Assembly: GCA_024679065.1 (NCBI GenBank)
Contig: JAGIQG010000040.1
Span: forward strand, 12,152,001 to 12,216,000
Reading direction: 5' to 3'
Length of the DNA: 64,000 bases
DNA from: Sphyrna mokarran
Lineage: Eukaryota
The notes beneath the pieces are model-generated. The model did no database searches, was not told the origin of the DNA, and saw only the letters and a list, made by a program, of their open reading frames with translations. Below, piece after piece: positions 27,348 through 64,000 of this stretch. Made by a program: the position numbers and the translations under genes. The stretch's first letter is position 1. The number at the start of each line of letters is the position of its first letter.

Positions 27348-27420
27348 GGGCCAGTGGCGCAATGGGTAACGCGTCTGACTACGCATCAAAAGATTCCAGG
27401 TTCGACTCCTGGTTGGCTCG
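27348..27420 (+). tRNA. tRNA-Arg(ACG), probable pseudogene
   Basis: Arg body with G37>C and an anticodon-stem mismatch (TCAAA versus TCAGA). Confidence 0.8.
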
Positions 27421-28089: not shown

Positions 28090-28146
<57 letters not shown>

Positions 28147-28409
28147 CACACTTTCTCGATAATTGCCAGGCTCGAGTCGAATTGTTATTGTGTGACACCA
28201 ACCGCTTCTTTTCTTTTGCAACAGAGAAGTTAAAGAGCAGCGAATGCACGAAAAACACTGACGTTGCACGCAGCAGGCACCAGAGGATTATCATACTGTG
28301 CATTCTCATACCAATTGAACTGGCTGACAAATTATGCTCTCCTTTGGTGCTTTGTAATAAATTTAAACGAAACACTCTTCAGTAAATCAACCATCTGCAT
28401 ATGAAAACG

Positions 28410-28481
28410 AGGTCCCACCGAGATTTGAACTCGGATCATTGGGTTCAAAGTCCAGAATGCTCACCATTACACCACGGAACC
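28410..28481 (-). tRNA. tRNA-Gln(TTG), probable pseudogene
   Basis: Gln body with two anticodon-stem mismatches (CTGGA/CCCAA). Confidence 0.8.
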
Positions 28482-32700: not shown

Positions 32701-35645
32701 TATCGGTGGATTGTTGCAGAGACAGGTGAACTGTAGTGAATCCAGGCAATCTGGGAGGCTGGAACTGATTCATGTCATAACTATTCTTTTGCTGCATCAC
32801 ATGATATTGGACAAATGTGTCAGTGAACAATATTCATTAAGGCAGGCTGATTGGTTTTCCTTTGGTAGTGGCCTTGGTTTGAGTTTTTCTTACTTGGTGC
32901 ATCGATCAACAACTTTCCTACTGAGAGAAGACTCACTGAGCTTCATGGTCCAGCAGGTCATAGTGGACCAGCTGCAAATACACTGGGCACAATGGCTTGT
33001 GCTAAACACTGAACCCTGAAGCATTGAAAGCAAACCCTGATAGTTGTGCTCTGCGTCATTCGAGTGTGAGATTACTGTTTCTTCCTGTGTTATGCGAACA
33101 GCAGCCACAACTCTGTGGTCTCCTCTCCAGAGTACAGGCTTTTGTAAGTATAATAGAGATTCTGAGCTGTCAAGGCATTAGGATTTCTCTCTCTCTCTGC
33201 CAACTGCTGTTAGATTCCAGAGGAATGGGAGAAATCAACACTGTTTGGTACGAGCTCTGCTGCAGGGATTGTCAATAAGCTGTCTGAAAAGTGACAGATT
33301 ACTACCTACAGGATTTCACAGGATTTTTTTTTTGTCAGGGTTACCCCCAAAATCTTCTCACTCTCCAAATCCCCCACCAAGTAGAGAGACTATTTACCTG
33401 TAGCTGAGTGAGGGTCAATGTTGAGGACCCCTGGAAAACTCTTTCCAAAATAGCATGGAGCAGCACGGTGGCACAGTAGTTAGCACTACTGACTCACAGC
33501 ATCAGGGACCTGGCTTCAATCCTAGGCTTGGGTCATTGTCTGTGGAGAGTTTGGACATTCTTCCCGTGTTTGGGTGGATTTCCTCCAAATGTTACACTTT
33601 CCTCTCATGATTCAAAAGATGCACCGGATGATTAAAAACAAGGGGCCTGTTCTGGAACTCTTGCTGTTTGTAATTTTTCTAAATGGCCAGGACAAGGAAT
33701 TGGAGGGATGGGTTAGTAAGTTTGCCGATGACACTATGGTTGGTGATGTTGTGGATAGTCTGTAGGGATGTCAGAGGTTGAACGTGACATAGATAGAATG
33801 CATGATTGGTCGGAGAACTGGCAGGTGGACTTCAACCCGAACAAATGTGTAGAAGTCCATTTCGGCGGATCCAATGGGATGAAGGAATATAATATCAAGG
33901 GTAAGCCTCTTAGCAATGTCGAGGTTTAGAAAGACCTTGGGGTCCGGGTCCATAGGGCTCTTACATCAGCATCGCAGGTGGAGGGTGTGGTCAAGAAGGC
34001 AGATAGTGTACTGGCCTTCATCAATCAAGGAATTGAGTTTAGAAGTCAGGAGATAAGGCTGCAGCTTTATAAGACTGTAGTCACACCCCACTTGGAGTGC
34101 CGTGAGCAGTTCTGGTCGCCTCTTTACAGGAAAGATGTGGAAGCTTTTGAAAGGGTGCAGAGAAGATTTACAAGGATGTTGCCAGGATTGGGTGGCATGC
34201 CTAATGAGGGTAGGTTGAGGGGGCTCGGTCTTTTCTGCCTGGAGAGACGAAGGATGAGAGGTGACCTGATAGAGTTTTATAAAATGTTGAGAGGTATAGA
34301 TAGGGAGGATTCACAGGCTATTCCCCAGGGCTGAAATAGTCGCTGTGAGAAGATTCAGGTTTAAGGTGCTGGGGAGTAAGTACATTGGAGATGTCAGGGG
34401 TAGGTTTTTCACTCAGAGGGCGGTGGGTAAGGGAATCAGCTGCCATCAGTAGTAGTGGTGGCGACCTCTTTGGGGTCTTCCAAGAGACATTTGGATGTGT
34501 ACATGGGATTTAATGGGATTGAGGTTTATCGGTAGACCTAGTAGGTAGGGATAGAATCAGTGCAACTGTGGGCCAAAGGACCTGTTTGTGCTGTAGTGTC
34601 CTATGATCTATGTTCTATCAAAAGAGATTTAAATGATTCAGTTTGTGTACTCATTTTTAAAATTTTTGTTCCATCTGCAGTTGAAATGGTGACTTATTCC
34701 CCTGAATCATATCTAATGTTGTTCTTCATTTTCTTCCTGATAGTGAATGTAATCACAATTGTGACATTGATGAGCAGAAACTGTGGTCTGTCCAGATGTG
34801 TCACTCGTTACCTGGTGGCCATGTCAGCGGGGGATCTGCTAGTTGTTATCCTCGACCTGATATTGAGACACATTCCCATCGTTTATTGGAGAAAGTTTTA
34901 TTTTCTGCTATCAGTCCCCGTGTGTAACATCCACGCTGTCCTGCTTTATGCAGCCACTGACTGTTCTGTCTGGTTCACTGTCACTTTCACCTTTGATCGA
35001 TTTGTGGCCATTTGCTGCCCCAAGCTGAAAAGTAAATATTGCACTGAGAAATCAGCGGCTGTGGTTCTGGGAACAGTGACGGCGCTGAGCTTTTTAAAGA
35101 ACATTTTCTGGTATTTTATGTTATTAAATCGCTATGAACTGGTGAACAACCCCTGGTTTTGTGGTTTCACATGGGAAGCTGCAGAATCTCCTGTCTGGGG
35201 AACAATCGAATTTCTCCACAACATTATAACCCCGTGTGTCCCATTTGCCCTGATTCTGCTGCTCAATGCTCTCACCATCAGGCACATTTTAGTGAGCAGC
35301 AGAGCCCGCAGGAGACTCCAGGCTCACAAAAATGGGGAGAATCCCAGAGATCCAGAGATGGAGAGTCGAAGGAAATCCATCATTTTACTGTTTGTTATCT
35401 CAGCCAATTTCATCGTCTTATGGTCGATATTAATGGTTTATTCAATATGGATTCGGATGTATAATTTGGGCTATCAGTCAATCAGGTTGCATCTTTTTGT
35501 AATGGAATTGGGCTTCATACTACAACTCACAAGTTGCTGCACAAACACTGTCATTTATGCTGTGACACAGACTCTCTTCAGACAGCAGCTAAAAGATCTA
35601 CTGCAATATCCCCTTACTGCTATTCTTCAACTCAAGACACCTTGA
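29796..35645 (+). CDS. Orphan class A GPCR, GPR139-like family, copy B; exon 1 29796-30012, exon 2 34744-35645; 372 aa
   Basis: Same exon lengths and phase as copy A; open 7TM frame with DRFVAICCP. Confidence 0.9.
30395..31235. mobile_element. Penelope-like element remnant (duplicate of 3440-4280)
   Basis: Collinear with 3440-4280. Confidence 0.7.
33463..33620 (+). mobile_element. HE1-like SINE (partial)
   Basis: GCACGGTGGCACAGTAGTTAGCACT head. Confidence 0.75.
33628..34617 (+). mobile_element. CR1 LINE 3' portion in the intron of GPCR copy B
   Basis: WVSKFADDT and LYKTVVTPHLE...QFWSP motifs; absent from copy A. Confidence 0.88.
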
Positions 35646-45829: not shown

Positions 45830-46473
45830 ATCCTTCAGTAAAGACTGCAGATTTATTCAATATTAATAACAATGCACATGATAAAAGAACAAGATTACAG
45901 ATATGAACAAAAGTGTGATTAACGAACCAGAAGAGCATAAGGCGAAGCAGCTGAAGTGGACCATTCAGCCCATCGGCTCTGCTTCACCGTTCAATGAAAT
46001 CATGGCTGATTTAATATCATCCCCAACTCCACTTTACCACCTTCTCCCTAATACTCTCTCTTCCCCTGACTAACCGGACGATCTTAAATGTGTCTGAATG
46101 TCCCATCTGTGAAATAACCTGAGCTCAATAACCGGATTTTAGGCTAAGCTGATTGTGAGATATTTAAAAGCTCTTGCTCATCTTATTTGTGAGATGCCGT
46201 GTAATCACGAAGCTCTGCACAGTGGGAGAGGGGGGCTGGATTATCTCTAAGGAGCCGGATGTACAGCCTGGGGTTTGGTGCCTCCGTGGCACTGGGAGGA
46301 AAATCTGGAGTCCAAGATTCAGTACGGGAGTGAGAATATCACCTTGGCTACAATCTAAAAGCGGGTGGCATCCCACTAACCGCCTGATATTCGCTCTGAC
46401 TGAATTCCTTTGATTCAGAGAAGTAACTCCAGGCTGTCAAACTCACCCTTTCCTCCACTAGCTCTTGAAATAC
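45830..46473 (-). other. Putative untranslated last exon of the TCR constant gene
   Basis: Minus-strand T-rich acceptor ending at 46474 and AATAAA at 45852-45857; expected from the donor right after the TM stop codon. Confidence 0.35.
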
Positions 46474-47653
46474 CTAAAAAAAACACAGAGACTGATTAAA
46501 GCTGAGTGGATCAGCTAGGTGTCATTTCAAAACCAGCCTACCTACTCACCATTCAAATCTAACTACTGAGTGATTGAGTTTGATGAAAATCCGATCAGAC
46601 CCTTGCTGATTAAATATATATTACGCTCTTAAATTATATGCAATAAAAATGCAACGTTTAAAATAACTACCAGAATAAAACAGCCAAAAAGGAACTTGAG
46701 GTGCCATTAGCTAGATTGCCCCGTGAAGACGCTGGGACTGTCGCAATGGGCTGAGTGGCTGTTTTTTTTTCTGTAATAGAATTCTACTATTCTAAGAAAA
46801 GAATATAAAAATCGAAGTTCTATGTGTCCTAAAATTGAAAATGCTGCTTTCAAAAATGTCTCCGACACTAATGTAGGCAGAAACCATATAAATGTGAGAT
46901 CCACGCTGTTGCTGAAATGCATAATTGAAATGTTTGTGTCGCATAAGCAGTAGAATTCATGCAGAAGCACAAGTTTCAAATCAAAATAACAGTGGAAAAA
47001 TGTTACCCGAATGAGGATGTTTAAAAGTTAAGCTGCCATTTAAAACAAGCGAGTTTGAATTGCTTGAAGTGGAATCTATGATCAGGAAGTGTCTGGATTT
47101 TGATGTCCCAGTCAATGAGTTCATATCTGAATCCATTTAATCTTCCAACGCAGTTCTGTTTGGAATGAAAGGAACGACAATGGGAGAACATCAAAGATCA
47201 GCAAGAAAAGAACACGTTTTATCTTTAAAGTCTCCATTAACCTGCTCCATTAATATTCTCAGAAGCCAATGCAAGTGCACAAAAATCCCTGCAGTGCAGA
47301 AGGATGCGATTTGGCCCACAGAGTCTGCACCGACTCTCTGAAAGTGCCACACAGCGCAAGACCAGATGATGGGTGTAAAAGGCTGGTCTGTCAGTGACAC
47401 CCATAATTAAACACAACTCTGGAGAGGTTTAAGAAGTCAAGGTTGCGATTGGGGGCGGGGGTTGACGGGATGAAAAGCGATGAGGATGGGGCACTGGGGG
47501 AAGAGTCCGTTTATCTAAATGTATCCAAGTTACTGTTCACTCCACGGGTTAGCTTCAGCGCTGCCTTAACAGTGACCTCGCGAGACCCCGTCAATGGACT
47601 GTGTCCATCACACTTTGTCTTTCTGGGCAGGCATTTAGGTGACCGATCTTACC

Positions 47654-47763
47654 TCAAAATAACCACACCCTGGCCGTCATCAGGACACTGAAGGCAATGC
47701 TCTTGAGAAACAAAATTCTTAGCCCCGTCACCATCAAAGACAAAAAGTTCGCCCTCAACCGAT
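47654..47763 (-). CDS. TRAC: TCR alpha-like constant region transmembrane/cytoplasmic exon
   Basis: ttttggcag|AT CGG...; (D)RLRANFLSLMVTGLRILFLKSIAFSVLMTARVWLF*; R-x4-K pair diagnostic of TCR alpha/delta; TGA G|gtaag donor after the stop. Delta cannot be fully excluded. Confidence 0.85.
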
Positions 47764-47950
47764 CTGCCAAAATGAGAGAAACAAATGATAGACCTGGTTT
47801 GGTACATATATCACTTGGAACTGGAAAAGAAATGTATAACATTAATGTGTCTCTTTTCCATTATCTAACTGCTTGACTTTCGTCTGTCTGTCCATCCTGT
47901 CCGCCCGTCTGTCCGCCAGCCCGGCTGTCTGCTGTCCATCTATCTGTATC

Positions 47951-48182
47951 NNNNNNNNNNNNNNNNNNNNNNNNNNNNNNNNNNNNNNNNNNNNNNNNNN
48001 NNNNNNNNNNNNNNNNNNNNNNNNNNNNNNNNNNNNNNNNNNNNNNNNNNNNNNNNNNNNNNNNNNNNNNNNNNNNNNNNNNNNNNNNNNNNNNNNNNNN
48101 NNNNNNNNNNNNNNNNNNNNNNNNNNNNNNNNNNNNNNNNNNNNNNNNNNNNNNNNNNNNNNNNNNNNNNNNNNNNNNNNNN
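47951..48182. other. Assembly gap
   Basis: N run. Confidence 1.
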
Positions 48183-48370
48183 TCCACCCCACGCCCCATC
48201 CCTCGATTTATACCTCTCTCTACCTCACACTGTGTGACGATCTATCTTTCTCTCCATCTCACTATATCTTTATCATTCGATATCCGGGTCTGTACCCCTG
48301 CCTATCTCTCAGTTATCAATCTGTCTATTTGCAGTATTTTCCATTGATAAATGTTGAATAAAGCACATAC

Positions 48371-48418
48371 CGTTTTCTGTCGAGAAATCATATCGACTTG
48401 TAAGGCATTTAGTTTGAT
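48371..48418 (-). CDS. TRAC: TCR constant region connecting-peptide exon (48 nt)
   Basis: ccttccag|AT CAA ACT AAA TGC...GAA AAC G|gtatgt; phase 1-1; QTKCLTSRYDFSTEN with interchain Cys and an FET-like FST. Confidence 0.75.
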
Positions 48419-49299
48419 CTGGAAGGACACAAAACAAACTGACTTATTCAGTGAATAAGTGACATTACTGTGACCATGTTTGTTCTCAATATCACTCCCA
48501 ATAATGTTGTTGTTATAACCAATAGCCACGAAGAAAGTGAGAATCAAACAGCACGATTGGAGTTATTCACTTGATTATTCAAAACGGAGAAACATTGATA
48601 ACTCCTCCATTTAGTTCAGCCCAAATCTGAGTTCAACGAGTGTAGGTTCGATTACCCATCAGGGATTAAACCCCAGAATCCAGACCATTCCATCGGGGCG
48701 GTATTTCACTGTCTTCCGAAGAAGTGGTGAAGCTGAGGTCTGATTTCAGCTCTGCAGTGGATTAATGATTTCAGGACATTTCTCCAGAGGAGCGGGATTC
48801 TCCAGTACCCTGGTTAGTATTTAATATTTTCCTAAATTCGGTGATACACCAGCAGCTGCGGGTCCTGGACACTGCCCTGAACTATAATGATTCGCTCTTA
48901 TTATTTTTTTAATCATTTACGGAATTTGAACTTCACTGGCAAGTCAGCATTTACTGCCAATCCCTAATTGCCCCCTTCAGAAGATGGTTGTGAGTATCCT
49001 GCTTGAACCTCATGAGTCTGTGAGATGTACATACACACACAATGCTCTTAGGGAAGAAGTTCCACCATTTTAACCGAGCGACAATGAAGGAACTGCCGAA
49101 ATATTTCCAAGTCAGGATGCTGAGTGATAATGGTGTTCCCAGGTATGTATTGCTCTTGTCCTGCGAGATGATAACGGCCGTGAGTTTGGAAAATTCAGCG
49201 GGATGAGACTTGGGGAATTACTGCTGTGTATTTGGTGAATGGCACACACTGCTACCAATGTGAACTGGTAGTGGAAAAAGAGTAGATGTTTGAGAATGG

Positions 49300-49645
49300 A
49301 GCACTTAATGCTAGAGTAACACAATGGTCAGTACTGTTCCATCCCTACCCCCATCTCTCCCACCTTTCCTCCAGTCCACCAATAGCGTCAAGGACCTGGG
49401 TTCGATTCCGAGTTTGGTTGACTGTGCAGAGTCTGCATGTTTCCCCGTGTCAGCGTGGGTTTGATCCGGGTGCTCCGGTTTCCTCCCATAGTCTGAAAGA
49501 CGTGCTGATAAGATGCATGGACCATGCTAAATTCTCCCTCAGCTTCCCCGAACAGGCGCACAGGATGGCATTTAGAGAATTTTCACAGTAACTTCATCGC
49601 AGGTTTAATGTAAAGCGACTTGTGACACTAATAAATAAACTTTTA
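49300..49645 (+). mobile_element. HE1-like SINE
   Basis: GGACCTGGGTTCGATTCC...CCCCGTGTCAGCGTGGGTTT...CACTAATAAATAAAC. Confidence 0.75.
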
Positions 49646-51639
49646 ATCAAGCGGAGCTGCTATGTTCTGGGTTGTGTCAAATTTCTATCTATTTCTGGAG
49701 CTACATTCATCCAGGCAAGTGGTTAATACACTACCACAGTCATGATTATGTCTTGTGGATGGTGCAGAGGATTTGGGAGATTACAAGGTACCTTATTCAG
49801 CACAGGATTCCCAATCTCCGACATCCTCTTGCAGTCAGAGACTTATACGGATAATCCAGTTCAGTTTCTGAGCAACGTTAATCCTCAGGATGCTAATAGT
49901 GGGCGTTGACCATTTAGAAGTCTACAAGACTGTGAGAGGCATGTACTGATGGGATAGTTAGAAGTTTTTTTTCCCCCAGAGTGGAAAATTCAATTACTAG
50001 TGATCATATACAAAGAACAAAGAACAACACAGCACAGGAAACAGGCCCTTCGGCCCACCAAGCCCGCGCCGCCATTTTAACATTCAGTGGGCACTTCATT
50101 CCAATCTTTCTTCTACCTATGACTTTTGCCTACGCTTCTTGGACACAGCAAAAAAGGTGTGCAAATTTAGAGAATTTCATATGTGCCAGATGGGGGGACG
50201 TCTCATTTAGGGACAATTTGTTAGCACCAATATGTTTAAGTACAAGGGACAAGGTTTGAAGGAGATGTGTGCGACAGATTTTTTACACAGAGGGTGGAGG
50301 GTGCCTGGATTTTGTTGCTGGGAGTGGTAGTGGAAGCAGATGATTTTTTAAGGGCATCTTGGCAAATAGATGCATAGGATGGGAATAGAGGGAGATGGTC
50401 CCCTGAAGGGTAAGGAGTTTTAGTTAATCTGGGCAGCATAGCCGTTGTAGGCTTGGAAGGCCGAAGAGCCTGTTCCTGTGCTGTAATTTTCTTTGTTTTT
50501 TGTTTCTTTCATGGTAATGCCATTAAATGACAAGAACCGATTGTTGCCTTCTTTCCTGTTGGAGTTGGTCATTGTCTGGAACATGGGCGGTGCAAATGTT
50601 TTTTTTTTGGGCGACTGGCCTCGGCAATGTTGTTCAGTTACTTTCAGTAGTTTGTCCCAAATGGTCTTTTCTATGATTTCTTAAACTGCGCTTGTAATAC
50701 TCGATATGGAGGGCGCTTTGGCCGCTTATGTTGAAATAAAAAAGGGCTTATGGTATCAAATTCCTATGGTTAACATTTGGGTTCAGATATCTCAAATGTC
50801 TATTTGATGTGTTATAAACCTTGGGAGTTCTCACTGGGGCTGGTGACTATCAGGTATTTCGGTTAACAGAAAGTGTTTGTTGGGTTTTTGTAGTGGTTGC
50901 CAGAGCTTGGAACACAGTTAATTAAAAGGACACATAGTGACACACAATCTTAAACTAATACAGAAATTATGAAGTTATTTCAGATCTGAAATCCAAAGAA
51001 GGTGGACATTAAATCAGTGTGCAAAAGGTGAAATAGCAGGAAACACATATAAATACAATATAATACCTTCAATTAATAAAAGTTCAAAACTAATGAATCA
51101 GAATAACTTCTGAGCTATAAAAATTAAACTGAAACCTTTAGTTTTTCAAACTAAATATCATTATAGAGTGTGAAGGAAAGTGAGTGCTTCTTTTAAGATA
51201 TTACAAGTTAAAAGTTTAAACTAATTTACGACACAGTACTGATTTTTGAACCTTCACAGCTGATTTCTTCACACAATATGGCCTGAAACTCAAATATAAC
51301 TGTTATTGTCAATGGATGATGAGTTCACAGTTCCAGATCTTAGCTCATCCTGAGTTGATGGGATCCACAGGACTCTGTAGTTAAAGTATAAAAGTGTACA
51401 TTTACATTGGTCCACAGTCACGTGATATATTACACTTGTCAAATGAAAATGCAATTACAGACAAAGCCAGTGACATGATACTAATATATTATAATGAAGC
51501 ACAATTTGACATCAGGTTAATTGATTAATAAGCTTCAATTATGAGATCATTACACATGACTAAGCTACAAACAACTAAACATGAGCATTCCTGCAGTCGA
51601 ACAACAGGCTAAGACAGTCACACATCTCAGTGCTAATGT

Positions 51640-52290
51640 TTTCACAGGAACAAGGAGTAGGATTCGACTAATTGACCCCTTGAGTCTGCTCCATCATTTA
51701 ATCAGATCACGGCTGATCTGATAATAACTTTAAATCTACATCCTGCCTACCCCCAATCATCTATTGCCAAGAACCTATCCTATAACAGCATTAAAAATAT
51801 TCAAAGATTCTGCTCCCACCGCTTTTTCTGAAGAGCATTCCAGATGACTGTCTGAAAGAAAATATTTCACCTCCTCTGTTTTAAATGTGTGAACTTTTTT
51901 TTTAAACAGGAACCTCTATCTCTGGATTCTCACACAAGAAGAAACATCCTCTCCACACCAATCTGTCAAGACCCTTCAGAATCTTCGATGTTTTGATCAA
52001 ATTTCTCTCTCTTCTAAACTCCAGCAGACACAAGTCGAGCCTATTTCAAGTTTTACCCATAGTCCACACATTTCTGGCATTAGTCTGGTCAATTGACTGC
52101 TTCCAATGCATTTACATCCTTGCTTAAACAAGATGACTAGTACTGTACACAATACTTCAGATCTGGTCTCACTGGTGCTCTGGATAACTGAAGCATAACC
52201 TCCATATTTATGTAACCAATTCCCCTCAAATGATAGCTTTCCTAATTACTTGCTTTAGCTGCTTATTAGCTTTTTGTGATTCATGCAAAG
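51640..52290 (-). mobile_element. Degenerate CR1 fragment
   Basis: CTTCTAAACTCCAG and ACAATACTTCAGATCTGGTCTCAC are typical reverse-strand CR1 ORF2 segments. Confidence 0.6.
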
Positions 52291-52560
52291 AACAGCAAGG
52301 AAGCCAGGTTCGATTCCCGGTTTGGGTCACTAGCTATATAGAATTTGTGCATTCTCCCTGTGTCTGCGTGGGTTTGCTCCGGGAGCTCTGGTTTCCTTCC
52401 ACAGTTTGAAAGACGTGCTGGTTAGGATGCATTGGTCATGCTAAATTCTTGAATGGACCTGAACAGGCACGGAGTGTGGCAACTGGGGGATTTTCACTGT
52501 GATTTCATTGCAGTGTTAATGTAAGCCGACATATTAGTGACACTAATAAATAAACTTAAA
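52290..52560 (+). mobile_element. HE1-like SINE
   Basis: Same family as 49300-49645. Confidence 0.75.
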
Positions 52561-52739
52561 CTGCAGGTCTAGGTGCTGCTGTGACAATGCACCCTTTTGT
52601 TTAAACACTCTGCAATGCTGAGACTGGGGAGAGGAGTGAACAACAGGGAGCAGCATTGCAGCTTCTCTCCCCCCATTGAAACTGGGATTGTTGCTCCATC
52701 TGCTGCACCATCCCCACCACATCCACTGGGGGCTAATCT

Positions 52740-53380
52740 GGACAATAGGCTGCAGGCAGGACTTCACTGCGCCTGCGCTGCAATCAATCCCGCCGCCGCG
52801 GCCATCTTGCATTGCCAGGGGATACGGTCAGCGGCCATTTTGCGTTGCCAGGGAGACGGCGTCCCACGCGCTGCACTCTGGGGGAATTCCACTGCCGCAC
52901 ATGCGCCCAGGCAATTACATTTTAATCTTTTAATATTTTGAATCTTGATGATTATTATTCACATCCTCACCCGACAGACTTTCGGTTCCTTCTCCATTCG
53001 GGAATATCGTTTCTTTTTTTTAATTACGTCTCTTTTTAAAACAATCACAAAGCGCGGTGTACGCTGGGAAAATACTACAGCACATGCGCAGTTCCACTAC
53101 TTGCCTCTTTATAAAAATATGTATTTTGTTTAATTTTAATTCCGCTCCCGGTGGGATTTCCGGGTGGGAATTTCTCTCACTTTCTACATTTCTGAACCGT
53201 CCCTTTTTCCTCGACCGGGGGGGGAGGGGTTGATGGTGACGTCACGACAATATGGCTACTGTTCCCGCCTCTCTATAGGCCCCGTATGTTCCGCCAACGA
53301 GCAGCAAAAGGGCCGAAGCGGGCAAGAGGTGACACTGGGCGGAGCAGTGCCCGGGCGTGTCACAACGACGACTGATGGTC
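52740..53380. promoter_or_regulatory. CpG-rich housekeeping-type promoter cluster
   Basis: NRF1-like TGCGCCTGCGC and GCACATGCGC (twice), two YY1-like GCGGCCAT(C/T)TTG, RFX-like GTTGCCAGGG, CRE GTGACGTCA near 53237. Confidence 0.55.
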
Positions 53381-53844
53381 AGGAAGGGAAATAGCAGCAG
53401 CACCGTGTCTGCCCAAAGGCTTCCCCAGTTCAGCTGCTCAGAGACACTGGGAACCTCTTCAACTGGAAACTTCAGCTTCTTACATTCACCTCTATCCACT
53501 TGACTACCCCTCCATCCATCTCACCCTCCCTCCTTCTTTCCATCCATCTCTCTCTCTCCCATCCACACATCCTTCTCTGCAATAAAACCATTCATTCGGA
53601 ACAGCTGCTTCAATCTCATTACCTCAGTCTGTCTTCCAGTCTGTGTCAAATCGCTCTGTTCCCAGATACTTTATACATTAGATACTACTATTCAAATATT
53701 ATAATCTTTCTAATTCTGTATTTGTTCAAAGATCACAGACAACAGAGAAATCATCAATTGTACCCCCATTCTGAGCTATGAAAATTTATACATTTTCTCA
53801 TTTCACAAACTTTTGATTAACTTCTGTTATGATTTTAGTGATGA

Positions 53845-54730
53845 CGTGGCGATGCCGGCATTGGACTGGGCTAAACATAGTCAGAAGTCTCACAACACCG
53901 GGTTAAAGTCCAACAGGTATATTTGGTAGCAAAAGCTTTTGGAGTACTGCCTTCGTCAGATAAGTGAGAGTTCCATTCATAAACAGGGCATATAAAATAC
54001 AAGCTCAATTTGCAAAATAATGGTTGGAATGCGAGTCTTTACGGGTAATCAAGTGTTAAAGGTACAGTCTCACATAGAGCACCAGCCACCCAGTACACGG
54101 TGCATATCCTTGCAACTTGGCCAACGTTGTCTACCTGAAATGCTGCAGGAAAGGATGTCCAGAGTTTGGTACATTGGGGAGACCATGCAGATACTACCAC
54201 AACGGTTGAATGAAAACCAGTCGACAATCATCAGGCAAGAGTATTCTCTTCCTATTGGAGAACACTTTAGCGGTCACGGGCATTCGGCCTCTGATCTTCA
54301 GTACACTTTGTCCAAAGCAGCCTTCACCACACACGACAGCACAGAATCACTGAGCACAGACTGATAGCCAAATTCTAAACACATGAGAACGCCTGAACCG
54401 GGATCTTGGGTTCACGTCACGCTAACTGAAACCCCCATGACCTTCCTTGTTCTTGCCAAATCTCACTTACTGTCTCGGCTAGAGACAACGCACATCTCTT
54501 TAAACTTGCTGAACCCTCTCCCAACTCACATTATCTGTATGTTTAAGACCTGATAACCTATAAAAATTTGCATTCCAGCCATTATTTTGTAAATTGAGTT
54601 TCTGTCATTATATGCCCTGCTTGTGAACAGAACTCCCACTCACCCGAGGAAGGAGAACCTCTCTTAAAACTTGTGGCTTTTGCTACCAAATAAACCTGTT
54701 GGAATTTAGCCTGGTGTTGTGAGAGTTCTT
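53845..54730 (+). mobile_element. Penelope-like element with GIY-YIG endonuclease remnant
   Basis: WYIGET...QRLNE...LPIGEHFSGHGHSASDL; inverted terminal segments. Confidence 0.85.
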
Positions 54731-54799
54731 ATATTATTTTAGTTTGCAGCAGGTGGATTGGAGAATAACATCAACTGGTCATTGTCTCAGTTTATCTCT

Positions 54800-55040
54800 T
54801 TGTTTGTGAGAGTGTGTGTGATAGTTGTATGTCTGCGTGTGTCACTGCTTGTGTTTGTGTAAGTCTATGTTTTTATGTGCATGTCTGTGTGTGTTCGTGA
54901 ATGTGATTGTGTGTGCCAGTTTGTCTGCAGCTATTTGTTTGAGATTGTGTATATCTGTATATGTTTGTGTGTGTGTGCCTGTGAGTTTTCCTGTGTCGGT
55001 TTGAGAGTGCATATCTGTGAATGTGTTCGTGTGTGTATGT
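54800..55040. repeat. Degenerate (GT)n tract
   Basis: Read directly. Confidence 0.8.
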
Positions 55041-55169
55041 CTTCGAGTTCACTGTCACTGTTCCTGAGATTGGTATAGATTATGTGAATAGGTTCATCTG
55101 CATTAAATTATATTAAAATAAATACAATAGGAATAAGAAAAAAAAACACAATCCTCCAATACGATCCTT

Positions 55170-55850
55170 CATTTGTCTGAAGATATCCCCGTGATTCATA
55201 TATCTAAAGCCCTTCCTCAAACACCCGGTCTTTAGCCACAGATTCAATTATACTATCTCCCTTTTGCAAGCCTTACTAGCAAGTAGCATGGAGAATAATC
55301 CTGAGATTACTATCCCAGAGGTCCTGCTCTGTCTAACTCCCTGAGTTGTCTTCACAGGCCCTCTTCCCCTTTCATTCTTTCCCCTTTCCCCTCTGTCATT
55401 AATGCCAATGTGGACAATGACATCTATCTGTTCACATTCCCGTTTCAGGATGCCCTGTACCTGCTCAGAGACACCCAGGATTCTGAAACCATTGAGACCA
55501 CACAACATCCTAGAATGTTGTTCGCTGCCACGAAAACGCATGTCTATGCTCCTGACTATCGAGTTCTTCTACGACTTTCATTCACTTGGACCTAGCTCGA
55601 TCCTTCTCTACAGTAGAACTAGTCATGGTGCCAGAAGTCTGGCTGCTGCTGGTATTTTCCCCTGAGAGGCTATTTCCCCTCCCCCAACATTATCCAAAAC
55701 AGTATATCTGCATGAGAGGTAATTGTCACAAAACTGCTGCAATACATGCCTGTCTATCCTGGCAGTCACTCTTCTATCTATCTGGATGTGGACTTGTGGT
55801 GTGACACCTTCTTGAAGCTAGTTCTATCACACTCACTTCTCCCTGTATGT
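55170..55850 (-). mobile_element. CR1 ORF1 (esterase-like) remnant
   Basis: VIVHIGIND...IVISGL motifs. Confidence 0.7.
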
Positions 55851-55859
55851 TCGGCAGCC

Positions 55860-56990
55860 ATAGAGTCATAGAGGTTTACAGCATAGAAACAGGGCCTTCG
55901 GCCCAATTTATCCATGTCACCCTTTTATTAAACACTAAGCTAGGCCCACTTGTCATGTTTGGTCCATATCCCTCCATACTCATTTTACCCATGTAACTGT
56001 CCAAAATATTTTTAAAAATACAAAGTTGTACCCGCCTCTACTACTACCCTTGGTAGCTTGTTCCAGACACTCACCACCCTCTGTATGAATAAATTGTCCT
56101 TCTGGAACATCTTGTAACTCTCCCCTCTCAGCTCAAATTTACACACTTTAGTTTTAGACTCCCCTACGTTTTGGAAAAAAATTTGCCCATCAAACTGATC
56201 TGTGCCCCCCATTATTGTATCGACCCCTTTAGGCGACATTCACCCCTATAAGATCACCGCTCAATCTTATACAGTCCAGGGGAAAAAAAAGCCAACCTTT
56301 CCTTATAACTCAAACCATTAAGTCCCGGTAGCATCCTAATAAATCTTTTCTGCATTCTTTCTAGTTTAATAATATCCTTTCTATAATAGGATGATCAGAA
56401 TTGCACATAGTACTCCAGGTGTGGCCTTACCAATGTCTTGTGCAACTTCAACACGAAGTCCCAACTCTTGTATTCAGGTTCTAATGATTAAACGAAACAT
56501 ACTGAATGCCTTCTTTACCACTCTGTCCACCTGTGACTCCACGTTCAATGAGCTACGAACCTGTTACCGCTAGATCTTTTTGTTCTATAACTCTGCACAA
56601 CACCCTGCCATTAAATGAGTAAGTTCTGTCCTGGTTTGATTGACCAAAATGGATCACCTCGCATTTATCTAAATAAAACTCCATCTTCCGTTCATCACTC
56701 CACTAGCCCAATTGATAAAGATCCCGTTGCAATCCGTGGTAACCTTCTTCACTGTCCACTATGTCACCAATCTTGGTGTCATCTACAATCTTACTAACCA
56801 TGCCTCTAAATTTCTCATCCAAATTATTAATAAAAATGACAAATAACAGTGTACCCAGCACCGATCCATGAGGCACACTGCTCTTCACTGTCCTCCAGTT
56901 TGAAAAACAACTCTCTAGAACCACCCTCTGGCTTCTGTCATCAAGCCAATTTTGTATCCATTTGGCTCCCTCACCCTGGATCCAGTGAGA
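55860..56990 (-). mobile_element. CR1 LINE ORF2 fragment with tail
   Basis: WIQNWL...QRVV...SVPHGSVLG...SKIVDDTKIG. Confidence 0.85.
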
Positions 56991-57482
56991 TTGTTTCCAG
57001 CCGCTGCTCCAACCGGACCCTGCGGTCTGTGAGGAAGTGCACCTGATCACACTTCCCGCAAACAGTTACCAGGGATACTAGAAAGTTCCCTAATCTCCCA
57101 CATCTAGCAAGAGGAGCATATCACAGCCCTGACTGCCATCTCTACACTTGGACACGGAAATAAAAGAAGAAGCTTCCTTACTTTTGACAAAGAGGGACGA
57201 TCACAAACCCTGAGAAGCAACATCCAGAGGAGTGACGGGATCAGGTTTTGGGGTCGGGAGCTCCGAGTCAGTGATAACTGTGGAGCCTCGACTGAATCTT
57301 CCCAGCTTTCTGTCACCTTTCCATTCTCGAGTTTTATTTTAAACAATGGGCGTGGCCTAAATTAACAATGTCCAGGCCTGAGGTATTTCAGTTCAGTTCT
57401 GAGATCCAGTGTCCCAGAGCAGCCAGACTCTGCAGTCTCCAGCTCCCCGTCACATAAACCATCAGCTCCGGGCAGCAGGGAG

Positions 57483-57949
57483 ATGGGAATCCTTCTTGTT
57501 TTCACCCTGTGTGCCTGTTTACCCCGTGAGTACCGACCAAACTAACCCACATTGTGTGGATTGGATATAAAGCTGTCCCAGGCCATCCCAATTACAGACA
57601 CTGTTTGGGGTTTTAGCCCCGTTGTGTGGTTCGGATCTGGTGGTCCATCAAACTCTCTGTGTTTAATTTCCAGGATCTTTCAGTCAGTCAGTGACACAAA
57701 ACCCGACAGAGGTGACCAAGAAGGAGTGTCAGTCTCTCACCATCACCTGTGATTTCTATGGTTATGGTTATCGCTTAGTAAATGGCGAATTCTTCAAACA
57801 AACCCAGCCCGGGAAGGAGAGGGAGCTGATCTCCAACGGAGGGAGATTTACTGTGTCTGTGAACAAAGCAGGAAATACATTTTCGCTGGAAATTCGGGAT
57901 TTGAGAGTTGAAGACGCCGCCACCTATTACTGTAAAGCCAAGTACAAGA
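57483..57949 (+). CDS. NAR-TCR-type V gene segment (leader 57483-57525, V exon 57674-57949)
   Basis: Leader MGILLVFTLCACLP-C|gtgagt; V SVTQNPTEVTKKECQSLTITC...GEFFKQ...ISNGGRF...FSLEIRDLRVEDAATYYCKA; canonical Cys 61 codons apart as in VNAR (no CDR2); extra FR1 Cys at 57727. Confidence 0.9.
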
Positions 57950-57987
57950 CACAGTGATGGGCCTCAGCTTCCGGCGATACAAAAACT
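57950..57987 (+). other. V recombination signal sequence (22-bp spacer)
   Basis: CACAGTG + 22 nt + ACAAAAACT. Confidence 0.92.
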
Positions 57988-58333
57988 TTCTTTGCGGATT
58001 CTCACAGAACCAAAGGGAAAACCGGAGCTAATCTACCCTGAATCACCACCGCGCCCCCCAATCCCACTACCCGCCAATCCCTCACACTCCTGAGGCCACA
58101 GTTTATTTTTAATAAGACCTGATTATCACCGTTGCTATGTTGAGGTTTATAAATACGGAGTGTGAGTGGATGGGGCTGTCATTCCCGGGAGTGCTGTCGG
58201 TGAATTGAGAATGGAAATGACTGATCCCAGTTACAAACCCTGACACCAGATGGGATCCTCGGCTCACAGCCGGAACTGGGAGCCACTTTCTGCGCTGTTT
58301 AATTCATGTTCCAACATCCCACCCAGTCCCCGA

Positions 58334-58405
58334 GGTTTTGATGCTGAATTGTAACACTGTGTAATATTTGGGATGGTCACTGTGGAAAGAAGCTGAACAA
58401 ATACC
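58334..58405 (+). other. D segment (58362-58377) flanked by 12/12 RSS
   Basis: GGTTTTGAT-12-CACTGTG [TAATATTTGGGATGGT] CACTGTG-12-ACAAATACC. Confidence 0.88.
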
Positions 58406-58718
58406 TGTGCACAATTACACTATCAATACTCAGTACCCAGAGAGTGAATCATTGGTTTGATGATATTATCGCTGTGATCGGGATTATTTCTACTGTAATC
58501 TCCACCATTCACATCTTTCCTTGATTTTTTTTTGCTATATATAAAGTGAATATTTCCTTCCTGCGGCCATTTACTGAGAGATCGGGCCTCACAAAATTAC
58601 AGTTTGAACCGACAGAGACGTTAAAACCTTGAGTATTATTTATTGATTTTAAATCCCCCGAATAATTGGACACTTCTCAATGACTGGTGATGGTTTTCCG
58701 GCAGATTGGGATATCGGT

Positions 58719-58807
58719 GGTTTTTGTACCGGGGAGATTGAAGGCGGAGTCACTGTGTAAATATTATGATGTGGATGGATCCGGGACGGTGGTGAGGGTC
58801 ACAGCCG
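58719..58807 (+). CDS. NAR-type J segment (coding 58758-58807) with 23-RSS (58719-58757)
   Basis: GGTTTTTGT-23-CACTGTG, then KYYDVDGSGTVVRVTA-G|gtaagt. Confidence 0.9.
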
Positions 58808-60199
58808 GTAAGTGACTCCAAATCCCACCTTGTTACAGTCTGTCTCGTTTAATGTCCCCCTTCACTTTATCATTGTGATCAGTCTGGTTTCAATCCCATC
58901 CAATCTTCCTGTGGAAAATCATCCGTTACAGATTCCGAGTTGGGAGCAGGGTGTGATTCTGGAACCGGCTCCATTTCAGTCCCGGGGAAAGTCTCTTTGA
59001 GAGCTGATGGAGTCGGCGGTCAGTGGGACAGGGATAGTGGGACGAGGCTTCAGGGGAGAGGGTGGTGAGGCACGGGGTGGGGGTGCCAGTGTTAGGTGTG
59101 ATGTGGGAGTTGAGAATCTGGATGATTATCGGTTTAAGGAGCACATCAGCATCAAGAACTCTGACACTTCTGACAGCTTTTAACACACTCAACACTTCGG
59201 AATCCATTCTGGATGTTAACTGTGACAGAGGGAGATCTGGCTGTCGCTTCCAGACCGACAACGGGATCACAAAGCTCTCTCTCCTGGGCAGTAGATTGCA
59301 GTCCTAGCCCTGGAATGTCAATGAAATACCGGCTGACTGAGATCAGTGTCACTGCGGCCGGTTTATTTAACCGCAGCGACTCATTCAATACCTGAACCAG
59401 GAGACAAAAAAAGGAAAATGACACAGCGGACCTCAGGAATAATGAACTTATTGCTGTCGGAAGGAATGTTTTAATAGAGAAATCAGTGACTGAACTTACT
59501 GACGTTCGACCCGATATTTCTTTAAATAGCCTTCGTTTAACAAATCACTTTAGTTTTCTTAGTTCAAATTACTACCGTTAATGGTTAGTCCTGGAGCATA
59601 GATCTTCAGTAATTTTGCCAGGATATTTTAGGGCCAATAGCTTTTTGCAGAATCCAATACTATGTTCTAGTACCTTCAGCCGGTGCTCAGTTTTGTAGAG
59701 TTAATTAAACTGACATCACTGATGTTGGGGATCTCTGGAGGAATTCCAGATGGATCATCCAAAGGATATCTGTGCAGGAAGAATGTTGGCACTGCTTACA
59801 CTTTATCTTCAGCAGACTGACAACTCACTTATAGAGATACTGCTGGGATTGCCTCCTGAAGTCTTTCATTGAACAAGTATTACTCTCTTGTTCGCTAATG
59901 TCAATGCAGGGGACATGCTGGCTCATGAGGTTACAGATTGTGTTTGAGTACAATTCTGCTGTCCATGGCCCATTGTGCCTTAGATGCCAAGCAATCAGTT
60001 GCTAAATCTGCCGGAAATCTATTCTGTTCGGTCTGATGACGGTGCCACACTACAAGATGGAGTGTAGCTCAATGTGAAGTTAGGGCTGAGAGAGGGGGAT
60101 GATGTGGAAATCGTTGAGGGAGAACAGGAGAATAGCAAAGAATTGTGATGAGATTTTTTTGAACAAGCAATACGCAATTAATCGACAGGGAGAGATAGT

Positions 60200-60800
60200 T
60201 CGGATTATCTCTGGAGAATGCTAAAAATATAATTATCACGAATTGATAATGAGACTTGTGGAAGTTCGGAGTGAAATGGACTCCTGTCGGGAATACTGTG
60301 TAAAATTTGGTCTCCTTTGTTATAGAAAAGTCAACATACTTTGGAGGGAATTTACATTTTCTTTTGTGAAGAGATTGAAGACCCAGATTTTAATTTGAGG
60401 TTGGAGGAATTAGGAGTGATCTCATTAGAATTTACAATATTCTCAAAGGACTAGACAAAGCATATTTTAGGTGGTTGTTTTTTTTTTCCTAGGCGGGGGA
60501 GTCTATAACTTGAGGTCAGATTTTCAGAATAACAGTTCAGCCATTTGGATTAAGAAGAGGAGAAATTTCTTCAGTCAAAGCCATTGTGGTGAATCTGAAA
60601 ATTCTGTACAGCAAAGAGCAGTGGTTAGTCAGTGTTAAACACATTCAAGGCAGCGTTTGTTATATATCTGTTCACTAAAATAGTCCGGGGGAATGGGTCA
60701 ACGCAGGAATTTCTTGTTGAGGCAGAAGATAAACTGCAACGTTACTGACTGATGGCGTAGCTTTGAAATGTGAAACGGCCGCTCTTCCTTCTATTAGTTG
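60200..60800 (+). mobile_element. Highly degenerate CR1 fragment
   Basis: GGAATACTGTGTAAAATTTGGTCTCC and AGGAGAAATTTCTTCAGTCA segments. Confidence 0.55.
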
Positions 60801-62399
60801 GAAATTTTGCTTCGATTTCTGCATTTCTCAAGAAATCAATCCGCAACAATTTCTGGGGTCTCTTTACACCTGGAGATTAGAGAACAGTGAAGAGGATTCA
60901 TGGAAATGGTTCATGTAACGAACAGGTTAATGAGATGTATGTGACCAAATTATTTATTTTTGGGTGTGTCTGGAGCAAGGGGCTATTAATATCTGATAGT
61001 GTTACAATCCCAGTTGATGTTACTATTGGATAGGAAGCTCCCAGATGAAAATTTGACTGGAAATAATGTAGTGTATTCTTCTGTTTTAGAACAATGGGGG
61101 GAATTAAATAACTGGATGACCAATTAGATTTTAATAATAGAAGATAAAAACATTTATCAATCATGAAAAAATTTTCTATGACACAATTTACTATGACAGC
61201 CCAACTCTTCATGACTGTACACAGACTTTAAGGATAACACAGATTGCAAAATAAATCTTTGCTATAATGTACCCTGTAAATGCAAACTCAGTAAAGCAAA
61301 AGGTCATTGTCTTCAGCTACACCCCATTCCAATACCCAGTGGTAGATACCATACAATCAAATTTCTGTGAATTGCTCCTCAAAACCCCACAGATCATTAA
61401 AAGCTATGAGCCAACTGGCCTCTCCAGACTCTCACATAGACACGAGTGTTTCCCATTCCCCACGTTCGAAAAGTCATATCTTTGGTAAATTCTACCAAAT
61501 AATTCTTTGCCTACTCTACTTTCAGCAAGGATCCACTTCCAGAATTTCGCATTTTGATTTCACTATTCCTCTATCTTGAATTCCCATGTGCATTCAAGTT
61601 TCCATACAAGCTCAGAGGTGTGTCGCCATGCCAATACCGCTTCATTGGCCTCACCAATATTATAATTATATCTGAAAGCTGGCTGGCCAACTTTACCAGG
61701 TCTGTGCAGTTCAGCTCTGCATTTAGCTGGGGGCCTTTGTCTCTGTCCCGTCTTCAACTTTGAGAATCAGTGCATAGTTCAGTTTCGAGTTCCTTTGCCC
61801 CCCCTCCCCCCTCTCAGTTCAGTTGTCCTGGAACGTTTTCCTTTCAGTTCCTTGGTTTCTAAAACTATGTGTTATTTATTATCTGGGATTTTTTTATTCT
61901 CCTTACTCCACTTATTGTTTCTGCTTTGACAGAGCAGGTGTTTTTTGTCTCATTGCGTATCTCCTAAAGCCTTGGGTCCAGTTAAACGCCTTCCTAATAC
62001 AAAGGTGGCTCCTGGTTCCCAAGGAACAGCCTATTCCTACTTTACAGCATTTTATTTTTCATGCCATTAACTCCCTCGGCATAATACAGACACCTTTTAA
62101 AATAACGAAAAACCCCATACATGCAAACACATTTGTTTGATATCATGCTAACTAGAGTTTTACCCTATTTTGTGCAGAAATGCTAAACTAAACTCAATTA
62201 AATATATATCTTATTTTTAATATTCAATAATACAATCACAGATTGCAGAAACCACCTCCACCTACTGACAATAGTGATTCAGAGAAAATCTAAATATCAA
62301 GAAGCAAAATTTAAAATATCGGCCAGGATGTGGAACTCACTGTCATTTTGAATGTTTGGAGCAGCATGTACTGATGCATCTATGGGAAAACTTGAAAAT

Positions 62400-62870
62400 C
62401 AGTAAAGTCTGGCAACACCAATTTTAAATCCAATCGATTTATTTGATAGTAAATCTGCGAGCTTTCAGCCTTTGTGGCCTTCGTCAGGTGAATGAGGTGT
62501 TCTGGTCTCCAAGAGCACACATATCAGCACAGACAGTTTACAGATTGCTGATTAGAATGCGAATCCTTACACCTAACCTGCTATGCAAGTCTTAAAGCGG
62601 CTAACAGGAGAGGTTAGAGGGATTACTTATAGCCATTTTAAGACTTGAATGGCAGGTTAGGTGTAAGGATTCACATTCTAATCAGCAATCTGTAAACTGT
62701 CTGTGCTGTTATGTGTGCTTTTGGAGACCAGAACACCTCATTCGCCTGACGAAGGCCACAAAGACCGAAAGCTCGCAGATTTACTATCAACTAAATCGGT
62801 TGAATTTAAAATTGGTGTTGCCAGACTTTAATGAGTTTACCCCAGTCCAACGCCGGCATCTCTACATCAA
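62400..62870. mobile_element. Palindromic (fold-back) Penelope-derived element
   Basis: Arms about 62403-62602 and 62630-62830 are reverse complements; ends CCCAGTCCAACGCCGGCATCTC like the other Penelope-like copies. Confidence 0.8.
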
Positions 62871-64000
62871 AACTTGAAAATATCAGAGGGAGAACAGACT
62901 GACACAGGGAGCTGGATGGGAAAGATCAATTAGAAAACGGCGGGTTGAGGTTGGTCTGGAATATTTACACAGACATAACTGTGTAGGTCGAATTGTCTCT
63001 TCTTCTGCTGCTGTTCTATAAAATTTATAACATAGAGAAGACTCTGCCCAGAGAACCCGGGAGAGCGTCAGTTAATGAGCAGAAAAAAAATGAAATAATC
63101 AGAGATCCAGTGAGTAACAGTAAAACCACTGCGGAAACTGAACAGAATGAGCACAACTGACAACAAGTACAAGACTTTGGGATATGTTTCCAAGACACAA
63201 GAAACAAGAAACCCAAACAACAACAAGTAAATGAAACGAATCTGATTAGAGATTTCAATGTAAAGTGAAGGAGGGCAATCATAATACTGACAGAAAATAA
63301 ACAAATAGATTTTAAAGGAAGGCTCCCAGAAAGTGTTAAATTCAATTAAATGTCTGTACATTTGGCCACCGTTGTTCGGCATGTTTCTGCACCGTTGAAG
63401 CTGATGAATCACAATCATTTTTGTTGGATCTTGCTGTGCATTGTGATGTGAGCAGTTGGGTTACGCTTTGACAAGCACTTCTAGAAATGGATTGCGTCAC
63501 TGATAATGAAATATTCCCTCAGTTTGTGTCTCAACATGGAAACTGGAAGCTGAAACCGAGTATATATGGTAAAATCATTTAGCATGGAAGGGCGACATTC
63601 GGCCCCTCGGGTAGATGCTGCCCCTTTATAAATGAAATCCAATTCTTCCACAAACTATGAATATTCCTGATAAACCTGTTGTTTTCCTGTTCATGTATGT
63701 GATCATTCCTCATTCATAATTCACTCTTAAACCAGCTCTTACTAAGCTGACAATGTGTTCATAGATTCACAGAATTTACAGCAAAAAGACAGTTTTTTTG
63801 TTCCAAACTGATCCATGTGCCGATCAAAATGCCCATCTAAGCTCAGTCATTTGTCTGCTTTTGGCCCATTCCCCTCTAAAACTTTTATTTTGGACAGATA
63901 TGTCTTTTAAATGTTGCCAATGTCCCTGCCTCAACCACTTCCTCCGGCAGCTCATTCCTCATATGCATCACCCTCTGTGTAAAAAAAAGTTTGTTTTTCC

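What the first reader, a model, noticed from the sequence alone, without database searches (positions are those of the whole stretch)
45830..57400. Intact TCR alpha-like hinge and TM exons with no Ig-C exon or J segments upstream
Seen: CP (48371-48418) and TM (47654-47763) exons are open, in phase, have good splice sites and keep the interchain Cys and the CD3-binding R and K. I found no C1-domain exon or minus-strand J-RSS in the 15 kb upstream, which instead holds repeats, a CpG promoter and an oppositely oriented NAR-TCR cassette. The usual TM Asn (FNxLMT) is Ser. Inference: (a) a partial duplicate or inversion breakpoint, (b) a misassembly, or (c) an Ig-less alpha-like chain that could pair with TCR beta and CD3 as a surrogate, which would be notable because pre-T-alpha is known only from amniotes. 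A signal peptide exon was not identified.
Basis: partly seen in the sequence, partly recalled or inferred. Interest (0 to 1): 0.72.

Follow-up and report, generated by a model that had tools for sequence, protein, structure and literature searches.

The report
Orphaned shark TCR-delta tail exons
These two exons are the hinge and membrane end of a shark T-cell receptor gene, most like delta rather than alpha, and no constant-domain exon lies in the 15.6 kb upstream; they are likely a broken copy from a delta gene family that appears to have multiplied in this shark lineage.

Summary
The hinge (48418-48371) and TM (47763-47653) exons are open and in phase. No C1 exon, minus-strand J or RSS-flanked J lies in the 15.6 kb upstream, which holds an opposite-strand NAR-TCR V-D-J cassette. 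The label is wrong: the exons are TCR delta-type. TM identity is up to 29/36 to Mustelus asterias NAR-TCR/C-delta models against 20-22/36 to shark alpha. The ending is TAR (14 of 14 delta-side references), not T[IL]R (7 of 7 alpha). This removes the pre-T-alpha surrogate idea. Three TM residues occur in 0 of 37 references, the hinge is 5 residues shorter than in the Mustelus models aligned, and no convincing leader exon was found. Mustelus carries 12 C-delta gene models on 12 scaffolds, 6 of them NARV-Vdelta-C in one orientation. Read depth hints at several copies here too. Best reading: a decaying 3' half of one NAR-TCR-delta cluster, cut in the C1-hinge intron, probably by an inversion (0.5). 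A misjoin (0.27) is not excluded: no bridging contig was listed, no genome is held and no RNA could be tested. The side result, many Ig-style TCR-delta miniclusters, is the interesting part.

The parts
48371..48418 (-). TCR delta-type connecting-peptide (hinge) exon, phase 1/1, keeps the interchain Cys; 5 residues shorter than in 5 of the 6 Mustelus C-delta rows aligned (3 shorter than the sixth)
   Evidence: (11/16 identity to P0020 329-344)
47653..47763 (-). TCR delta-type TM/cytoplasmic exon with stop; keeps R and K; T11M, M13T and N26S are seen in 0 of 37 references
47951..48182 (.). Assembly gap (232 N) inside the CP-TM intron, flanked by simple repeat
45852..47155 (-). Candidate untranslated last exon (acceptor at 47155, AATAAA at 45857); not shown transcribed
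   Evidence: DNA held in all 4 runs laid
48419..53450 (.). Stretch where the C1 exon should be; repeat-rich; the inferred breakpoint lies somewhere here
   Evidence: breakpoint position is inference
52700..53400 (.). CpG-rich promoter-like element; behaves as a dispersed multi-copy sequence, not a locus-specific promoter
   Evidence: CpG o/e; word depth 3300-4600 in X1 bins against 217-282 at TM/UTR
57483..57525 (+). NAR-TCR V leader exon, intact
57674..57949 (+). NAR-TCR V exon, open, 70-74% identical to six Mustelus NARV; followed by RSS (heptamer 57950, 22-nt spacer)
58362..58377 (+). NAR-TCR D segment between two 12-RSS
58758..58807 (+). NAR-TCR J segment behind a perfect 23-RSS, with splice donor
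   Evidence: 13/16 identity to P0022 J

Best explanation
The two exons are the hinge and membrane end of a shark TCR constant gene, most like delta, with no C1 exon in the 15.6 kb upstream, and they are likely the non-functional 3' half of one copy in an amplified family of NAR-TCR/C-delta clusters, probably cut off by an inversion in the C1-hinge intron. Shown: exon structure; absence of C1, J and a good leader upstream; closest relatives are C-delta models; a NARV-D-J cassette sits head-to-head with the exons. Inferred: an intact unit runs promoter-NARV-D-J-Vdelta-Jdelta-C1-CP-TM in one direction, as in Mustelus gene models. One inversion, with a break in the C1-CP intron and another upstream of the NARV promoter, gives the layout seen. 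It predicts Vdelta, Jdelta and an orphan C1 on the + strand beyond 64000. Inferred: without V, C1 or leader the stub makes no receptor chain and is drifting.
For: Delta identity: the best hits are Mustelus models (80%). TM identity is 24-29/36 to six Mustelus rows against 20-22/36 to four shark alpha rows. TAR occurs in 14 of 14 delta-side references and T[IL]R in 7 of 7 alpha. The tree puts the window on the delta side, 90/97. NAR-TCR is described as a delta chain (PMC5931798, PMC12227049, passages). Amplified family: 12 Mustelus C-delta models on 12 scaffolds of different length, 10 distinct C sequences, 6 of 12 with NARV, 7 of 12 with the supporting Vdelta. TM/UTR and NAR cassette pieces have like word depths in X1 (217-260), X3 (13-19) and X4 (4-7), and assemble even in runs of only 98-313 Mb of contigs. 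I read this as multi-copy DNA of one copy class (inference). Decay: three TM residues in 0 of 37 references, including the invariant Asn; Thr13 is read as Met in 4 of 4 runs; 5-residue hinge deletion. The neighbourhood is duplication-prone: 1-4909 matches 26913-31865 at 93%, and there is a decayed V at 18694-18400.
Against: No contig bridging 48.4-57 kb was listed (lists were cut), so the junction is not shown to be real. DNA beyond 64000 could not be read, so the predicted orphan C1 is untested; no supporting Vdelta lies within 5.2 kb of the NAR J. Both exons keep open frames, splice sites, Cys, R and K. Relative-rate tests on the TM were not significant (p 0.125-1.0, 4 of 4 outgroups). Hinge length varies among elasmobranch delta-side rows. 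The tree split is not starred and the window is a long branch (0.57). Skate and stingray delta TMs are only 22-23/36 alike, the same range as alpha. NCBI names 5 of the 12 Mustelus models 'alpha chain MC.7.G5-like'. The laying tool warns that summed contig depth is no copy number, and no single-copy control was laid. The Mustelus evidence is automatic gene models, not DNA that I read.
Confidence: 0.5

Rival explanations
1. Assembly artefact: near-identical C-delta clusters were mis-joined or mis-oriented at a repeat in the C1-CP intron, and the real gene is whole.
For: Gapped scaffold with a 232-N gap inside the gene. The intron upstream of CP is full of high-copy repeats (depth up to 6e5 in X1). 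Multi-copy units are prone to chimeric joins (general knowledge). The Thr13 base is absent from 4 of 4 runs, which could be a consensus error.
Against: The stretch 48183-64000 has no gap. Both exons, on either side of the gap, carry atypical changes, as a damaged copy would. A window-type minority allele class exists at 46690-46745 in X1 (62-90 of 209-238 depth).
Confidence: 0.27
2. The gene is whole but has a long C1-CP intron (over 15.6 kb) into which an inverted NAR cassette and repeats were inserted; C1 lies beyond the window on the minus strand.
For: Splice sites, frame, Cys, R and K are intact. V and NARTCR segments lie in both orientations across shark antigen-receptor complexes (PMC12227049 Table S1).
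Against: The stingray C-delta model spans only 21.8 kb in all. The invariant TM Asn is lost. Needs an extra insertion event.
Confidence: 0.1
3. An expressed Ig-less delta-type stub: an upstream promoter and leader would splice into the hinge exon and give a short chain that could pair with TCR gamma and CD3.
For: The exons are open and in phase. A CpG promoter-like element lies 4-5 kb upstream with minus-strand donor-like sites. An Ig-less pre-T-alpha splice form exists in mice (recalled, from no call).
Against: Only 1 leader-like phase-1 exon in 15.5 kb (51476-51422, weak donor); 47.5% of 40 shuffles give one or more. Without a leader, a 50-residue protein with a C-terminal TM would be tail-anchored with the hinge in the cytosol (established cell biology, inferred here). 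The promoter is a dispersed repeat. The TM Asn is lost.
Confidence: 0.04
4. One reading: an Ig-less TCR alpha-like surrogate for TCR beta, a shark counterpart of pre-T-alpha.
For: The top PDB hit is a TCR alpha TM peptide (27.9 bits against 25.4 for delta). PTCRA is reported only in amniotes among tetrapods (PMC9614664 passages).
Against: Shark references place the exons with delta. R and K are common to alpha and delta (37 of 37 rows). No convincing leader. PTCRA has an Ig domain and a tail.
Confidence: 0.01

Closest known systems
Shark TCR delta constant gene (TRDC) of NAR-TCR; nearest: Mustelus asterias models XP_078058864.1, XP_078058183.1, XP_078058588.1
   Same: Hinge and TM exon layout, Cys, R and K, TAR ending, up to 29/36 TM identity, NARV-D-J cassette nearby
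   Different: No C1, Jdelta or supporting Vdelta in the window; NARV cassette on the opposite strand; shorter hinge; Asn26, Thr11 and Met13 changed
Shark TCR alpha constant (Chiloscyllium, Hemiscyllium, Stegostoma models P0021, P0035, P0038, P0039)
   Same: General alpha/delta TM motif with R and K
   Different: 20-22/36 TM identity, T[IL]R ending, unlike hinge; other side of the tree; no J array
[quoted passage not shown]
   Same: Only the idea of a non-rearranging chain with a hinge Cys and charged TM
   Different: PTCRA has an Ig domain and tail and a CNPY3 neighbour (PMC9614664 passages); here delta-derived, no leader found, no expression evidence
Elasmobranch IgH miniclusters (V-D-J-C cassettes)
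   Same: Mustelus C-delta models look like repeated self-contained cassettes, and broken copies accompany them (2 of 12 lack the start of C1)
   Different: TCR alpha/delta is described as a translocon in four elasmobranch genomes (PMC12227049); the cluster reading here rests on automatic gene models

Membership tests
TCR delta constant (TRDC), elasmobranch | Hinge and TM sequence group with delta rather than alpha | tested here: met
   TAR 14/14 against T[IL]R 7/7; up to 29/36 against 20-22/36; tree 90/97, not starred, long branch
TCR delta constant (TRDC), elasmobranch | Interchain Cys, TM Arg and Lys | tested here: met
TCR delta constant (TRDC), elasmobranch | Invariant TM Asn | tested here: not met
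   Ser; Asn in 37 of 37 reference rows, many of them near-copies
TCR delta constant (TRDC), elasmobranch | C1 exon and J segments upstream on the same strand (complete gene) | tested here: not met
   none in 48419-64000; beyond the window not readable
TCR delta constant (TRDC), elasmobranch | Spliced V(D)J-C transcript | not testable with these tools
   all 4 runs laid are contigs that run through introns
TCR alpha constant (TRAC) | Groups with shark alpha; T[IL]R ending; J-alpha array upstream | tested here: not met
Pre-T-alpha-like surrogate chain | Signal-peptide exon in phase upstream | tested here: not met
   1 weak candidate, at chance level; simple heuristic, which found the NAR leader as positive control
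Pre-T-alpha-like surrogate chain | Thymic expression and pairing with TCR beta/CD3 | not testable with these tools
   no RNA data could be laid
NAR-TCR V-D-J cassette | Leader, NARV, D and J with compatible 23/12/12/23-type RSS | tested here: met
   (V spacer 22 nt)
NAR-TCR V-D-J cassette | Supporting leaderless Vdelta downstream | tested here: inconclusive
   none in 58808-64000; may lie beyond the window
Multi-cluster (minicluster) TCR delta organisation | Several NARV-Vdelta-J-C units in the genome | tested here: inconclusive
   12 protein models on 12 scaffolds in Mustelus; for the window's species only depth hints; no DNA of other copies read

The most novel reading that the evidence does not exclude
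In this carcharhiniform lineage, TCR delta has left the single-translocon plan and is amplified as many self-contained NARV-D-J-Vdelta-J-C-delta miniclusters, like shark IgH: at least a dozen in Mustelus asterias and several in the window's species. The window shows the birth-and-death debris of that family, one cluster broken by an inversion.
Probability: 0.5. Interest if true: 0.68.

Novelty: new variant of a known kind. Interest (0 to 1): 0.38.

Why it matters
The orphan exons alone are probably a pseudogene fragment or a misjoin and matter little. The context may matter more. Shark TCR alpha/delta is described as a translocon and shark Ig as miniclusters (PMC12227049, PMC6795676, passages). 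A living lineage with many NAR-TCR-delta V-D-J-C clusters would blur that divide, bear on which layout is ancestral and on how NARV moved between TCR and Ig, and could be tested at once in a public chromosome-level assembly. The result also removes a tempting false lead: this is not a shark pre-T-alpha.

Tried and rejected
No whole genome is held, so the scaffold and other copies could not be searched. A word-based protein search with the TM frame found 0 of 32 candidates at E 0.01; the HMMER search found 20. Run search: no RNA holder listed, which is no evidence on expression. The 4 runs laid (4 of 23 listed) were swamped by repeats at 88% likeness. Tables were cut (932 differences, 1995 joints, 6492 loose ends and 180873 pieces not shown), and no CP-TM joint or bridging contig was among the rows shown. 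The CP bin had lower depth in 3 of 4 runs (93, 0 and 2.4, against 27 in X3); not interpreted. An RSS-like site at 57282(-) was considered as a RAG-type breakpoint: 22.5% of 200 shuffles give one or more and it has no V or J beside it, so it was treated as chance. Pfam on the TM frame and on 9 further ORFs (8 upstream, 1 downstream): no family at the curated cut-off. Repeat search 48183-59500: only SINE/LINE-like pairs, nothing marking the breakpoint. Relative-rate tests not significant. NARV lacking the usual Trp was first noted as a defect; all six Mustelus NARV have Phe there too, so this was dropped. Earlier findings of this scan: nothing in 3 look-ups. Two papers on the nurse shark locus were not held.
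Full report
Observation. The hinge exon (48418-48371, minus) is 48 nt, phase 1/1, with AG/GT ends and one Cys. The TM exon starts at 47763, stops at 47654 and has its donor one base later. The TM frame matches TCR alpha and delta TM segments in the PDB (22 sequences at E up to 10, best 1.5e-5). Upstream, the only open phase-1/1 exon candidates of C1 size lie in a LINE-like remnant, there is no minus-strand J motif, and no credible RSS points to a minus-strand J. Permissive tblastn with C1 domains of Mustelus and catshark delta and epaulette alpha gave nothing above 23.5 bits in the whole window. The same kind of search finds the TM at 60 bits and the 16-residue hinge at 26.6 bits. A NAR-type leader, V, D and J with four good RSS lie on the plus strand at 57483-58807.

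Identity: delta, not alpha. HMMER over 1.84 billion proteins gave 20 hits at E up to 0.001. The best are Mustelus asterias models (80%), then catshark, sevengill, basking shark and sawshark. I compared 21 references, chosen by me from the stored proteins. TM-exon identity is 24-29/36 to six Mustelus rows, 21-27/36 to eight other delta-side elasmobranch rows, 20-22/36 to four shark alpha rows and 21-23/36 to three bony-fish alpha rows. All 14 delta-side references read TAR near the end, as the window does; all 7 alpha rows read T[IL]R. The tree of hinge plus TM separates the 7 alpha rows from the rest at 90/97. This is not starred, the window is a long branch (0.57) and the tool warned of long-branch joins. 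The labels need care. NCBI names 5 of the 12 Mustelus models 'alpha chain MC.7.G5-like' and 7 'uncharacterized'. I call them delta for three reasons: they group with proteins named 'T cell receptor delta constant' (skate, stingray); 6 of 12 carry NARV, and NAR-TCR is a delta chain (PMC5931798 and PMC12227049, passages); and the catshark relative has the same name as the Table S1 row annotated IgWV-TCRD (matched by name and scaffold size, not by accession). The labels 'teleost alpha', 'basking delta' and 'unnamed delta' in the tree are my own.

State of the copy. Over 37 stored references (many are near-copies), three TM residues of the window occur in none: Met11 (Thr in 34), Thr13 and Ser26 (Asn in 37 of 37). 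The base giving Thr13 is read as the Met base in 4 of 4 runs, so it is private to this copy or an error. The hinge lacks 5 residues against 5 of the 6 Mustelus rows aligned, and 3 against the sixth. Against decay: frames, splice sites, Cys, R and K are intact; relative-rate tests are not significant (6:1, 5:2, 2:3, 4:2; p 0.125-1.0); and hinge length varies among elasmobranchs. A heuristic leader scan found the NAR leader as a control and only one weak minus-strand candidate upstream (51476-51422), which is chance level (mean 0.58 in 40 shuffles). The CpG element at 52.7-53.4 kb has more than ten times the depth of the TM region in X1 and so looks like a dispersed repeat.

Context: an amplified family. 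Mustelus asterias has 12 C-delta-bearing models on 12 scaffolds of different length, 34 kb to 20 Mb. They give 10 distinct C sequences with 0-20 differences over 116-118 residues; 6 of 12 include NARV, 7 of 12 the supporting Vdelta, and 2 of 12 lack the start of C1. Two models with the same C have different NARV (P0029, P0030). A gene model strings exons in one orientation, so these imply colinear NARV-J-Vdelta-J-C units (inference; I could not read their DNA, and some may be haplotype duplicates). Heptranchias has two C models on scaffolds of the same length. For the window's lineage, 4 of 23 listed runs were laid. Organism A differs by 0-1.4% in X1's pieces over TM/UTR and the NAR cassette, and by 0-3% in X2's UTR pieces. 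TM/UTR pieces and NAR cassette pieces have like word depths: 217-260 in X1, 13-19 in X3, 4-7 in X4. They assemble in runs with only 98-313 Mb of contigs. A depth over 200 is more than one whole-genome run of a multi-Gb genome should give single-copy DNA, so I read both as multi-copy and of one class. The tool warns that depth is no copy number, and I had no single-copy control. The rest of the window is typical duplicated V-region DNA: two intact-looking 7TM GPCR frames, a 4.9-kb duplication at 93% and a decayed V. Table S1 of PMC12227049 shows V and NARTCR segments in both orientations over megabases in other sharks.

Mechanism. Take one colinear unit and invert its 5' part, with one break in the C1-hinge intron and one upstream of the NARV promoter. 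The hinge, TM and UTR stay on one strand, and the NARV cassette now points away from them, head to head, as seen. This single inferred event explains both the missing C1/J and the opposite cassette, and it predicts Vdelta, Jdelta and an orphan C1 on the plus strand beyond 64000. No supporting Vdelta lies in the 5.2 kb available; great white NARTCR V models span 3.8-12 kb, so this is not yet a failure. The same layout could be an assembler's jump between near-identical units. No listed contig bridges 48.4-57 kb, and the lists were cut. Odds: real broken copy 0.5, misjoin 0.27, whole gene with a long intron 0.1, expressed Ig-less delta stub 0.04, alpha surrogate 0.01; the rest is unassigned.

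Novelty. The papers seen describe shark TCR alpha/delta as a translocon: PMC12227049 (parts 1-2 of 8, passages, whole Table S1; its PDF supplement was not read) and PMC6795676 (passages). Searches for multiple shark C-delta genes or clusters (listings only for papers not named here) showed no such report. The library lacks most subscription papers, and two nurse shark locus papers were not held, so absence from print is not established. PMC9614664 (passages) confirms PTCRA in amniotes and not in amphibians. PMC13434710 (passages) gave only the Mustelus assembly size.

Verdict. Most likely this is a broken delta-cluster fragment, with a misjoin still open. The multi-cluster NAR-TCR-delta lead deserves a direct check in the Mustelus assembly. 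Interest 0.38.

Noticed in passing
proteins P0002, P0020, P0022, P0023, P0025-P0031, P0037: Mustelus asterias has 12 TCR C-delta gene models on 12 scaffolds, 6 of them NARV-Vdelta-C; 5 are auto-named 'alpha chain'. Suggests Ig-style TCR delta miniclusters.
   Followed up: partly
proteins P0004, P0033: Heptranchias perlo has two different C-delta-like models on scaffolds of the same length (1,715,135), one with a NAR-type J and supporting Vdelta.
   Followed up: no
window 18694-18370 (-): Decayed TCR V segment with stops, a frameshift and a worn RSS-like tail.
   Followed up: partly
window 6219-7145 and 34545-35642 (+): Two long open 7tm_1 GPCR frames, 88% alike in DNA, near a 4.9-kb duplication (1-4909 / 26913-31865, 93%). 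A GPCR-like first exon seems to lie at about 20310-20204 (-), read by eye.
   Followed up: partly
window 50900-53450: Medium-copy module with a CpG-rich promoter-like end (motifs resembling YY1 and NRF1 sites, recalled and read by eye, pointing along the minus strand); depth 800-8600 in X1. Family not identified.
   Followed up: partly
window 57244-57282 (-): RSS-like site with a 23-nt spacer just upstream of the NARV promoter, no V or J beside it; within chance.
   Followed up: yes
window 19136-19264 and 47951-48182: Two N gaps (129 and 232 nt); the second splits the hinge-TM intron.
   Followed up: yes
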